Source: Escherichia coli (GTDB taxonomy: Bacteria; Pseudomonadota; Gammaproteobacteria; Enterobacterales; Enterobacteriaceae). From it: 40,572 nt of DNA. Shown in pieces: positions 39,881-40,495 of this stretch. Where the stretch lies: assembly GCF_003334355.1 (NCBI RefSeq), contig NZ_QOWP01000032.1; one strand, 5' to 3'. The translations under genes were made by a program, and so were the position numbers. The notes beneath the pieces are model-generated. The model was not told the DNA's origin, ran no database searches, and saw nothing but the letters and a program-made list of their open reading frames with translations. Each line of letters opens with the position of its first letter. The stretch's first letter is position 1.

Positions 39881-40495
39881 GCGTCAATACGGTGCTCCGT
39901 TGACGCTTACTTCCTCCGGATGTTGTTAAACCAGCCGGTGTGGTCATGAAAACAGCGCGCCACCTTCACCGGCATAACAACCGGGGAGAAACGTAAAAAA
40001 TAATCGGGAATGCGGCTGTCCGGAGATAAACGGGGGGATTGCGATGGCAGAGCCGTAGCGGAATCCCGGAGGGGGGTGTTGCGAAAAGATGCTTCCGCAC
40101 GCACGCGCGATAAAGAGGGGATAGTTTTCGTGAGGACAGGGAGAGAAGCAGGCGTTCTGATAATTGCAGAGTTGTTTTCGGAGGTGGTTACAGTGAGTCA
40201 GCCCGTTCCTGGCGAGCAGGAGACTGATATCACCGATGGGATAAGGTTGTCTGATTGGTATTATAAATATAAGAAGTCATCAGAGAGTAACGTAAAGGAT
40301 TTGCCAGAATAACCTAAGAGAGTAAATCTCTCCGGTAACAGAGCGCTGTGAAGCATTCTGTATCAGAGTGCAGATACATGAACGCTGATGCGTAAAATCA
40401 GCAGTGACACGCCAGCTCCCCCTATGCCCATTCCTGTATAAGACATGAACTGAGTGTATTAATGCTTCTGCCCTGAGACTGAGCCGGTGAGTGAG

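What the first reader, a model, noticed from the sequence alone, without database searches (positions are those of the whole stretch)
39881..40495. About 600 bp unassigned segment between the IS66 remnant and the IS2 end
This stretch has patchy GC-rich composition and a 100-codon ORF (40010..40312) with an Arg/Gly-rich start that I cannot place in any family. It may be more prophage debris, a small phage-derived gene or a non-coding RNA. It is the least explained part of the window.
Basis: seen in the sequence. Interest (0 to 1): 0.35.

Follow-up and report, generated by a model that had tools for sequence, protein, structure and literature searches.

The report
Orphaned control DNA from deleted island
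This stretch is a 585-bp non-coding leftover of a common E. coli genomic island, stranded when two deletions next to insertion sequences removed the genes on both sides; its 100-codon reading frame is not a gene, so it is ordinary debris.

Summary
The segment is real, and it is now accounted for over its whole length.

- **39881-39910:** the last 30 bp of the IS66-family remnant.
- **40496 onward:** the IS2 left end.
- **39911-40495 (585 bp):** 100% identical to unannotated DNA found in well over 1,000 complete E. coli genomes.

In intact copies this DNA lies between a 68-aa AlpA/excisionase-type gene and an island-borne hha-type gene. Both belong to a CP4-44-type island at this same chromosomal site.

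Compared with E. coli strain L73, the window carries two deletions, each flush with an IS end. One of 17,053 bp removed the island body, including the alpA-like gene. The other, of 5,592 bp, removed the hha remnant and the Gp2-family genes.

ORF 40010-40312 is not coding:
- Substitutions are spread evenly over codon positions.
- Frame-breaking indels occur in every diverged copy.
- It matches no protein family.
- An ORF this long appears in 18% of shuffles.

No Rfam family matches. The minus strand of about 39902-40000 keeps the structured 5' leader of the deleted alpA-like gene. That leader is supported by folding statistics and covariation, but it has no gene to act on here.

Verdict: ordinary island debris, low interest.

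The parts
39881..39910 (-). Last 30 bp of the IS66-family remnant, after the stop codon of its transposase fragment. It contains the terminal inverted repeat, read on the minus strand as GTAAGCGTCAACGGAGCACCGTATTGACGC.
   Evidence: Homology to K-12 (yoeD/yoeF region) and to strain L73 runs through 39912 and then stops. Pfam PF13817 (IS66 C-terminal element) matches 39728-39877 at E=8.5e-16. An inverted repeat spans 39875-39887 and 39900-39912. That IS66-family ends begin GTAAGCG is from my own knowledge.
39911..40495 (.). 585-bp non-coding remnant of a CP4-44-type island. In intact copies it is the first ~590 bp of the ~700-bp spacer between an alpA-like gene (minus strand) and an hha-like gene (plus strand).
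   Evidence: It is 100% identical to L73 37259-37843 (locus L100) and to many other genomes, and is unannotated in most of them. The architecture alpA <- spacer -> hha is seen in L006, L008-L014.
39902..40000 (-). Structured 5' leader of the deleted alpA-like gene: a TTTTTTAC box (complement of 39993-40000), a long two-helix hairpin, and the Shine-Dalgarno sequence CCGGAGGAA (complement of 39911-39919). The start codon and the gene itself are gone; the 3' end of the covariance-model match (39902-39910) runs 9 nt into the IS66 terminus.
   Evidence: Covariance model R1 matches 39902-40000 (-) at 63.6 bits, E=1e-11. MFE is -34.3 kcal/mol, z=-2.4. On A4, 87.6% of cells are paired against 80.9% in shuffles, 0/500 shuffles reaching the observed value. 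On A5, 13 of 17 pairs show changes on both sides. In L001 the alpA ATG lies 8 nt beyond the point where window homology ends.
40010..40312 (+). It is a chance open frame on the G-rich, stop-poor strand, not a gene.
   Evidence: Substitutions by codon position are flat ([23,21,24], [32,25,27]), against [3,3,12] and [4,2,10] for the neighbouring alpA gene at the same divergence. Indels of 1, 2 and 13 nt break the frame, including a 2-nt deletion at 40069 in a 96%-identical copy. There are no Pfam, NCBIfam, PHROG or PADLOC hits. Database hits are almost all Escherichia/Shigella 'hypothetical' calls of 55-134 aa. An ORF of this length appears in 18% of shuffles.
40153..40173 (.). Invariant 21-nt block CGTTCTGATAATTGCAGAGTT, containing the small palindrome TCTG-N7-CAGA. 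Its role is unknown; a protein site or a small hairpin are both possible.
   Evidence: It is invariant in all 8-12 diverged copies, while the flanks vary by ~20% and carry indels.
40228..40273 (-). Conserved block that marks the distal end of the 370-nt Escherichia-specific region. The minus strand carries a perfect TATAAT (complement of 40260-40265) but no recognisable -35. It is a candidate distal promoter for a long alpA leader; this is inferred, not shown.
   Evidence: Alignments A1 and A2 show TATAAT in 8 of 10 lineages and TTTAAT in 2, and homology between lineages collapses just beyond this block. The consensus promoter scan of the identical sequence in L001 reported no site inside the segment.
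40274..40495 (.). Lineage-variable spacer that, in intact copies, leads to the hha-type gene or its remnant. Here it is cut by IS2.
   Evidence: At least two unrelated sequence versions exist among island copies. The hha remnant lies ~170 bp beyond the IS2 joint in L004 and L001. No TomB-like and no Gp2-like coding remnant was found.
40496..40572 (+). Left end of IS2; this is outside the finding and forms its right boundary.
   Evidence: It is 100% identical to the end of K-12 IS2F and to L73 43436-43512.

Best explanation
Bases 39911-40495 are a non-coding leftover of a CP4-44-type (P4-like) genomic island that normally sits at this chromosomal site, next to yeeX/yoeF. In intact islands this DNA is the divergent control region between a 68-aa AlpA/excisionase-type gene (minus strand) and an island-borne hha-type gene (plus strand). 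In this strain two deletions, each flush with an IS end, removed everything around it. A 17-kb deletion next to the IS66-remnant terminus took the island body and the alpA-like gene; its joint lies in the spacer between the Shine-Dalgarno sequence and the start codon, 8 nt before that codon. A 5.6-kb deletion next to IS2 took the hha remnant and the Gp2-family and zinc-ribbon genes. These points are shown by homology. The 100-codon ORF is a chance frame, also shown. How the piece works in intact copies is inferred. The minus strand is transcribed towards alpA. The last ~100 nt form a long hairpin whose basal helix includes the Shine-Dalgarno sequence, which keeps translation of the excisionase/regulator low until the hairpin is opened. 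The C-rich, G-poor 270 nt upstream may add Rho-dependent attenuation. In this window the leader has no gene left to control, so it is most likely inert.
For: Identity and origin:
- Window 21199-39912 is collinear with E. coli L73 (97%). Window 39911-40495 then equals L73 locus positions 37259-37843 (100%), and 40496-40572 equals the IS2 end at 43436-43512.
- The L73 annotation shows the full island between those points.
- The segment occurs in 3,623 of 5,426 complete E. coli genomes, a median of 2 places per genome, almost all chromosomal. There are no matches in phages and only 10 among plasmid records.
- The flanking gene in intact copies carries Pfam PF05930 Phage_AlpA. The hha-type gene is annotated or hits PF05321.

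Not coding.

Leader:
- CM hit on the window at 63.6 bits.
- Window hairpin at -34.3 kcal/mol, z=-2.4.
- Across 30 lineages mean z is -3.1, and the sense strand is more stable than the antisense strand (p=0.0017).
- Covariation exceeds both the shuffled and the slid controls.
- A 14-nt deletion in L009 removes only the apical part of the hairpin.
- The minus strand has C/G of 1.8-2.8 over ~300 nt.
Against: - No transcript data exist, and the consensus scan found no sigma-70-like promoter inside the segment.
- A direct test of whether the Shine-Dalgarno hexamer is more paired than in shuffled leaders was not significant (0.72 vs 0.67, p=0.05).
- Much of the hairpin is invariant in sequence (four CCGG boxes), so those positions are equally compatible with protein-binding sites.
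- Alignment A5 was fitted to the model's structure, so its pair counts lean towards that structure.
- The 370-nt 'conserved' block diverges by ~17-21%, about the same as alpA third codon positions (15-19%). Most of it may therefore be neutral rather than functional.
Confidence: 0.85

Rival explanations
1. ORF 40010-40312 encodes a real, lineage-restricted small protein (an orphan island gene), possibly co-expressed with the downstream hha-type gene.
For: PGAP and other pipelines call overlapping ORFs in some genomes, for example WP_000840364.1 (88 aa) and WP_001224230.1 (77 aa). A ~65-residue core (ARTRDKEG...DWYYKY) stays open in four lineages: window, L004, L011 and L012/13.
Against: The core shows a flat distribution of substitutions over codon positions ([11,9,10], [8,9,10]), while alpA shows a clear third-position excess. 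The frame is broken in L006-L010, the start codon is not conserved, and a 2-nt deletion destroys the window's N-terminus in a 96%-identical copy. No family was hit in four libraries. The called products vary from 55 to 134 aa. The ORF length is within chance.
Confidence: 0.04
2. The segment encodes an independent trans-acting small RNA. Candidates are a plus-strand antisense RNA to the alpA leader, or a processed minus-strand leader fragment acting like the P4 CI RNA.
For: The leader region folds better than shuffles on both strands (antisense mean z -2.4). Invariant blocks at 40153-40173 and 40228-40273 have no assigned role. P4-type elements are known to use leader-derived RNAs for immunity (my own knowledge).
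Against: No Rfam family matches, even at E up to 1. No intrinsic terminator was predicted on the plus strand; the only terminator-like site is a weak minus-strand one inside the hairpin. The alignment folds over the full 370 nt gave essentially no covariation term (+0.23 and -2.16 kcal/mol). The structured part abuts the start codon in all intact copies, which fits a cis role.
Confidence: 0.08
3. The repeated palindromic boxes (four CCGG boxes; TCTGAT repeats) are DNA operators or nucleation sites for AlpA, H-NS/Hha or another island protein. On this reading the apparent RNA hairpin is a by-product of that DNA symmetry.
For: The CCGG boxes are nearly invariant in sequence within this leader type. 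H-NS control of alpA promoters in P4-like prophages is reported for Shewanella (PMC5148205, abstract). The island itself encodes an Hha-type H-NS partner.
Against: Other lineages keep stems of the same size, and the same 92-104-nt spacing, with unrelated sequences (GATATC-type and CCTTCC/GGAAGG-type), although their AlpA proteins are 63-80% identical. G-U pairs and the sense-versus-antisense asymmetry favour RNA. The two readings are not mutually exclusive.
Confidence: 0.15
4. The T-run plus hairpin is a single-strand DNA origin or nick site for the Gp2-family (rolling-circle Rep-like) protein rather than an mRNA leader.
For: In at least 24 of the 80 loci from other genera, a Gp2-family gene ends ~100 nt upstream on the same strand, just before the TTTTTTAC box. 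Rolling-circle origins are typically hairpins next to rep genes (my own knowledge).
Against: In the Escherichia islands the Gp2-family gene lies 1.5 kb away and points the other way, yet the element stays fixed to the alpA start codon. The 3' arm always ends in the Shine-Dalgarno sequence.
Confidence: 0.05

Closest known systems
CP4-44 cryptic prophage / flu-yeeR islands of E. coli that carry the extra hha paralogues hha2 and hha3 (PMC4864382, PMC6480617)
   Same: Same chromosomal site next to yeeX (tmaR), yoeF and the IS66-type yoeD remnant. In the intact relative L73 the same island genes are present: yeeW, cbtA, yeeU, yeeT, yeeS and a GTPase. An island-borne hha-type gene lies next to the segment in intact copies.
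   Different: K-12 CP4-44 does not contain this alpA-hha spacer at all. In the window the island is reduced to 585 bp.
AlpA / Vis / TorI-type excisionase-regulator genes (Pfam PF05930) of P4-like prophages and Asn-tRNA-associated islands (PMC8844411, PMC5148205)
   Same: The gene this segment once controlled is a 68-aa PF05930 protein, with weak excisionase-family hits.
   Different: K-12 alpA (CP4-57) has only a 43-nt gap to its divergent neighbour and no such leader. I found no description of a structured leader for this subfamily in the papers searched.
Shine-Dalgarno-occluding mRNA leaders such as RNA thermometers and translational attenuators
   Same: A stable hairpin directly upstream of the start codon, with its 3' arm running into the Shine-Dalgarno sequence. 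Lineages keep the pairing with different sequences.
   Different: No trigger is known. The occlusion test was not significant. There is no match to any curated Rfam cis-regulatory family.
int-alpA RNA motif, recalled from memory as a bioinformatically found RNA near integrase and alpA genes
   Same: Association with alpA-type genes on mobile elements.
   Different: No Rfam family of any kind matched the window at E up to 1, or 20 related loci at gathering score. Membership is therefore not supported.
IS-mediated adjacent deletions, or recombination between IS copies
   Same: Both deletion joints coincide exactly with an IS terminus: the IS66 remnant end at 39910 and the IS2 left end at 40496.
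   Different: The mechanism cannot be told from the sequence. It could be one-ended transposition, or a second IS copy inserting and then recombining. An independent deletion of nearly the same interval in another strain used 5-bp microhomology instead.

Membership tests
Protein-coding gene (ORF 40010-40312) | The reading frame is kept in diverged homologous copies | tested here: not met
   Indels of 1, 2 and 13 nt shift or stop the frame in L004 and L006-L013.
Protein-coding gene (ORF 40010-40312) | Excess of substitutions at third codon positions | tested here: not met
   The counts are flat ([23,21,24], [32,25,27]; core [11,9,10]), against [3,3,12] and [4,2,10] for the alpA control.
Protein-coding gene (ORF 40010-40312) | Membership of a protein family, or homologues beyond near-identical DNA | tested here: not met
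   No Pfam, NCBIfam, PHROG or PADLOC hit. All 96 hits are unnamed or (apart from three stray transposase/DNA-methylase labels) called 'hypothetical'; nearly all named ones are Escherichia/Shigella, and lengths run from 55 to 134 aa.
Protein-coding gene (ORF 40010-40312) | ORF longer than chance allows | tested here: not met
   18% of 2,000 dinucleotide shuffles have an ORF of at least 100 codons.
CP4-44-type (P4-like) genomic island DNA | Collinear homology to an intact island at the same chromosomal site | tested here: met
   Window 21199-39912, 39911-40495 and 40496-40572 map to L73 locus positions 1510-20205, 37259-37843 and 43436-43512.
IS66-family element | Transposase C-terminal domain and terminal inverted repeat | tested here: met
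   This holds only for 39728-39910: PF13817 at E=8.5e-16, and homology to the K-12 and L73 remnant ends at 39912. Bases 39911-40495 are not part of it.
IS2 | Identity to the IS2 terminal sequence | tested here: met
   This holds only for 40496-40572, which is 100% identical to the K-12 IS2F end. The segment itself is not IS2.
Any curated Rfam RNA family (including sRNAs of islands and prophages) | Covariance-model match | tested here: not met
   Zero matches at E up to 1 on 39300-40572, both strands. No match lies in the segment at gathering score on the whole window. None lies in the alpA leaders of 20 related loci.
Structured cis-regulatory 5' leader | Fixed position directly upstream of the start codon of one gene family | tested here: met
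   The leader, measured from the start of the TTTTTTAC box through the ATG, is 92-104 nt in most of 50 distinct leaders (a few are longer, up to 131 nt). CM hits abut the alpA ATG in 36 loci.
Structured cis-regulatory 5' leader | Folding energy beyond shuffled controls, and strand asymmetry | tested here: met
   Mean z is -3.1 and 22 of 30 lineages fall below -2. Sense is more stable than antisense, p=0.0017. The window copy has z=-2.4.
Structured cis-regulatory 5' leader | Compensatory base changes in the helices | tested here: met
   A4 has 19 double-change cells against 6.8 in shuffles, 0/500. A5 has 13 of 17 pairs with double changes and 83% of cells paired, against 24-54% when the partners are slid. 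Caveats: the sequences are related, and A5 was fitted to the model.
Structured cis-regulatory 5' leader | Shine-Dalgarno sequence more occluded than expected by chance | tested here: inconclusive
   Pairing probability is 0.72 against 0.67 in shuffles, Wilcoxon p=0.053.
Structured cis-regulatory 5' leader | Expression of the downstream gene changes when the structure is altered | not testable with these tools
   This needs reporter fusions in a strain with an intact copy.
Rho-dependent attenuator (rut site) | Long C-rich, G-poor stretch of transcript | tested here: met
   C/G is 1.8-2.8 in 78-nt windows over ~300 nt of the minus strand. Rho dependence itself cannot be tested here.
TomB-Hha type module | TomB-like gene upstream of hha | tested here: not met
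   tblastn of K-12 TomB against the spacers of the window, L001, L010 and L012 gave no hit better than E=2.4.

The most novel reading that the evidence does not exclude
The minus strand of 39902-40000 is an orphan copy of an uncatalogued cis-regulatory RNA. That RNA precedes one subfamily of AlpA-type excisionase/regulator genes on integrative islands across Enterobacterales, including Escherichia, Klebsiella, Enterobacter, Serratia, Yersinia, Pectobacterium, Hafnia, Proteus and Providencia. It consists of a TTTTTTAC box, an 85-95-nt hairpin leader kept with different sequences in different lineages, and a 3' arm ending in the Shine-Dalgarno sequence. If real, it would be a post-transcriptional gate on island excision.
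Probability: 0.45. Interest if true: 0.4.

Novelty: new member of a known kind. Interest (0 to 1): 0.17.

Why it matters
For this window it matters little. It closes the 'least explained' gap, shows that no gene or new element is hidden there, and documents how a 23-kb island was whittled down to 585 bp by two IS-adjacent deletions.

The side result could matter more. A constant-length structured leader in front of AlpA-type excision regulators in many enterobacterial islands could explain how excision of these islands is kept rare. It is directly testable with reporter fusions. It remains a modest, incremental point.

Tried and rejected
- **Pseudogene of a Gp2-family gene.** In other genera such a gene sits directly upstream of the leader. 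tblastn of 46 such upstream ORFs against the window segment and three intact spacers gave nothing better than E=0.03. Rejected.
- **Degenerate tomB-like gene upstream of hha.** No similarity was found. Rejected.
- **Phage or plasmid origin.** There was no phage match and only 10 plasmid-collection records, several of chromosome size.
- **Copies in K-12.** None in CP4-6 or CP4-44. CP4-57 alpA has a different, short upstream region, so no K-12 experimental data can be borrowed.
- **Long-range RNA structure over the full 370 nt.** RNAalifold covariation terms were about zero on both strands, so I claim structure only for the proximal ~100 nt.
- **Shine-Dalgarno occlusion test.** It was not significant and is reported as such.
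- **Structure-aware aligners.** mafft-xinsi and mafft-qinsi were not usable, so the three leader types (CCGG, GATATC, CCTTCC) could not be put into one alignment. The covariance model built from the CCGG type gave at best marginal matches (19-26 bits, E 0.01-0.6) to four of the other leaders and none to the rest.
- **Promoter.** The consensus scan found no sigma-70 site in the segment. The TATAAT at 40260-40265 (-) and the T-rich box are only candidates.
- **Exact arrangement elsewhere.** No complete E. coli genome in the collection carries both joints as one uninterrupted match.

Full report
**Observation**

The stretch is as described. The ORF listing gives a 100-codon ORF at 40010..40312 (+), with 10 Arg and 7 Gly in its first 48 residues. 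GC is 0.55 over 39900-40199 and drops to 0.43-0.47 beyond that, with GC skew up to +0.40.

The left boundary needs moving. Base 39880 is only the stop codon of the IS66-type transposase fragment; Pfam PF13817 matches 39728-39877 at E=8.5e-16. The element's terminal repeat runs to 39910, and homology to K-12 and to strain L73 runs to 39912.

The ORF is not beyond chance. In 2,000 dinucleotide-preserving shuffles of the segment, 18% contain an ORF of at least 100 codons.

**What the DNA is**

Bases 39911-40495 are 100% identical to DNA that is unannotated in most genomes and is found in a large share of E. coli:
- 3,623 of 5,426 complete genomes have a match.
- 1,834 genomes cover at least 80% of the segment.
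- The median is two places per genome, almost all chromosomal.
- There is no match in the phage collection and only 10 records in the plasmid collection.

In intact copies the segment begins 8 nt from the start codon of a 68-aa gene on the minus strand, annotated as a helix-turn-helix regulator. Its product carries Pfam PF05930 (Phage_AlpA) and gives weak excisionase-family matches.

About 700 bp away, on the plus strand, lies an hha-type gene. It is intact (70 aa) in L010, L011 and L012, and truncated or a pseudogene in most other copies. Beyond it come a small zinc-ribbon membrane protein gene and a divergent 'inovirus Gp2 family' gene.

The literature links such extra hha copies (hha2, hha3) to the flu-yeeR islands related to CP4-44 (PMC4864382, PMC6480617).

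**How it came to be stranded**

Strain L73 has the same chromosomal neighbourhood as the window: ugd, wzzB, the his operon, sbcB, dacD, sbmC, yeeA, tmaR (yeeX), the yoeF-type EutP remnant and the IS66 remnant. In L73 these are followed by a complete island: yeeW, cbtA, yeeU, yeeT, yeeS, a dynamin-family gene, a GTPase, IS100, a 200-aa gene, the alpA-like gene, the spacer, the Gp2-family gene, zinc-ribbon genes, ISL3 and IS2.

The window aligns to L73 in three pieces:

| Window | L73 (locus L100) | Identity |
|---|---|---|
| 21199-39912 | 1510-20205 | 97% |
| 39911-40495 | 37259-37843 | 100% |
| 40496-40572 | 43436-43512 | 100% |

Relative to L73, the window therefore has a 17,053-bp deletion flush with the IS66-remnant terminus and a 5,592-bp deletion flush with the IS2 left end. 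The 585 bp are what lay between them.

No complete genome in the collection has both joints as one uninterrupted match. A different strain (isolate 44) lost nearly the same interval independently. Its joint lies four codons inside alpA, at a 5-bp microhomology GGGTA. Loss of the island body is therefore recurrent.

**The ORF is not a gene**

I compared the window with nine diverged copies (79-96% identical).
- Substitutions inside the ORF are spread evenly over codon positions, for example [23,21,24] and [32,25,27]. The ~60-codon core that remains open in some lineages is equally flat ([11,9,10], [8,9,10]).
- The adjacent alpA gene, at the same evolutionary distance, shows the expected third-position excess ([3,3,12], [4,2,10]).
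- Indels of 1, 2 and 13 nt break the frame. A 96%-identical copy already has a 2-nt deletion at 40069 that destroys the Arg/Gly-rich N-terminus.
- The protein search returned 96 hits, nearly all of those named from Escherichia or Shigella, unnamed or (with three stray exceptions) called 'hypothetical', 55-134 aa long and with variable coverage. This is the signature of gene callers picking different chance frames on conserved DNA.
- Pfam, NCBIfam, PHROGs and PADLOC gave nothing.

**RNA**

No Rfam family matches 39300-40572 at E up to 1. No match on the whole window at gathering score lies in the segment.

The minus strand of the first ~100 bp is nevertheless clearly structured. It folds at -34.3 kcal/mol with z=-2.4, into one long hairpin. 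The basal helix pairs GUUUCUCC with the Shine-Dalgarno region GGAGGAAG (GGAGGAAC in intact copies; the last base here comes from the IS66 terminus).

I collected 80 loci encoding 63-90%-identical AlpA-type proteins from other Enterobacterales.
- None shares the long Escherichia spacer or an hha gene within 3 kb.
- Most have a TTTTTTAC box at a nearly constant 92-104 nt from the ATG, followed by hairpins built from unrelated sequences in different lineages: CCGG-type, GATATC-type and CCTTCC/GGAAGG-type.
- Across 30 distinct lineages the leaders fold with mean z=-3.1, and 22 of 30 fall below -2. The sense strand is more stable than the antisense strand (p=0.0017).

For the CCGG type, which includes the window, I tested a two-helix structure.
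- On alignment A4 it has 87.6% paired cells against 80.9% in column shuffles, and 19 double-change cells against 6.8. No shuffle of 500 reached either value, and slid controls gave 21-52% paired.
- A covariance model built from A4 finds the window copy at 39902-40000 (-) with 63.6 bits, and 35 other leaders that all abut the alpA start codon.
- On the resulting alignment A5, 13 of 17 pairs show changes on both sides.

Caveats:
- The sequences are related to one another.
- The second alignment was fitted to the model.
- The four CCGG boxes are almost invariant, so they could equally be protein-binding sites.
- A direct test of Shine-Dalgarno occlusion against shuffled leaders was not significant (0.72 vs 0.67, p=0.05).

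**The rest of the segment**

The 370-nt block next to alpA looks conserved, but it diverges by 17-21% between lineages. That is about the same as alpA third codon positions (15-19%), so most of it may be drifting neutrally.

Only three parts are clearly constrained: the leader (39911 to about 40006), CGTTCTGATAATTGCAGAGTT (40153-40173), and the block at 40228-40273. The last carries a perfect TATAAT on the minus strand but no -35. The consensus scan found no promoter in the segment.

The minus strand is C-rich and G-poor (C/G 1.8-2.8 over ~300 nt), as Rho-utilisation sites are. Beyond 40274 the copies fall into unrelated sequence versions. No remnant of a Gp2-family gene or of a tomB-like gene is detectable.

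**Mechanism**

Shown: the segment is island control DNA that has lost its genes on both sides.

Inferred for intact copies: minus-strand transcription towards alpA, with a hairpin that includes the ribosome-binding site and limits translation of the excisionase/regulator. The long C-rich upstream leader may add Rho-dependent attenuation. H-NS/Hha silencing at the DNA level is a plausible further layer (PMC5148205 reports H-NS control of alpA in a P4-like prophage).

In this window the leader ends in the IS66 terminus, 8 nt before where the start codon would be. It can regulate nothing, and at most it feeds a transcript into the IS66 and yoeF remnants.

**Comparison and verdict**

The closest known things are:
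- CP4-44 and the flu-yeeR/hha2-hha3 islands, which share the site and the gene set.
- AlpA/Vis/TorI-type excision regulators.
- Ordinary Shine-Dalgarno-occluding leaders.
- IS-adjacent deletions.

The segment is not a member of any Rfam family, not part of IS66 or IS2, and not a gene. It is ordinary debris of a known island type. The only mildly new point is that the debris preserves a copy of a widespread leader that, as far as I could find, has not been described. Interest is low.

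Noticed in passing
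L101 4809-4813 (E. coli isolate 44); equivalent to just left of window 39911: An independent ~16.3-kb deletion of nearly the same island interval. It joins a truncated cbtA to the fourth codon of the alpA-like gene at a 5-bp microhomology (GGGTA). Loss of the island body while keeping the spacer and the Gp2-family side is therefore recurrent.
   Followed up: partly
window 40073/40080 (equivalent site); L005 1552-3005: In UPEC 26-1, and apparently many ST131-type genomes (hits starting at query position 170 or 177), an ISEc20 element (IS110 family) sits at exactly this point of the spacer. Whether this reflects clonal inheritance or sequence-specific targeting was not examined. Other copies carry different IS elements in the same spacer (L016, L017), so the region looks like an IS hot spot.
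   Followed up: no
L019-L098, about 92-104 nt upstream of the alpA-like ATG; window complement of 39993-40000: A TTTTTTAC box lies at nearly constant distance from the start codon in ~50 distinct leaders from many genera. In at least 24 loci it directly follows the stop codon of a Gp2-family (rolling-circle Rep-like) gene on the same strand. Its role (promoter -10 or start-site region, protein site, or nick site) is unknown.
   Followed up: partly
L004 1206-1299 (+), L008 706-799 (+), L017 1082-1175 (+): The leader covariance model gives weak second matches (26.5 bits, E about 0.01) elsewhere in the island, beyond the 200-aa gene and on the opposite strand from alpA. This may be chance or a degenerate second copy.
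   Followed up: no
L010 3203-3415, L011 4529-4741, L012 4563-4775 versus L001, L004, L005, L006, L008, L009, L013: The island-borne hha-type gene is intact (70 aa) in only a few lineages. In most copies it is truncated to 42-49 aa or flagged as a pseudogene, which suggests it is decaying in many islands.
   Followed up: partly
window 28284-28407 (-), 31146-31220 (+), 3528-3566 (+): Rfam matches elsewhere in the window: the His operon leader, sRNA STnc240, and a JUMPstart element at the head of the O-antigen/polysaccharide cluster.
   Followed up: no
window 1-21198: The first half of the window (polysaccharide/O-antigen genes up to wzz) has no close match to strain L73, apart from 71% identity over part of wzz, while everything from the his operon onward is 97% identical. 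The O-antigen cluster is a different serotype type.
   Followed up: no
L019 (contig labelled Collinsella sp. MAG); L011 (assembly labelled Edwardsiella tarda): A 7-kb contig in an Actinobacteria MAG carries a 90%-identical alpA-like gene with the Escherichia-type leader, which is probably binning contamination. An assembly labelled Edwardsiella tarda carries the whole Escherichia-type alpA-spacer-hha-Gp2 arrangement at ~83% identity, either by transfer or by mislabelling.
   Followed up: no
L075 5462-5499 (+): A JUMPstart RNA match (49 bits) lies ~2.3 kb downstream of the alpA-like gene in a Providencia rettgeri island.
   Followed up: no
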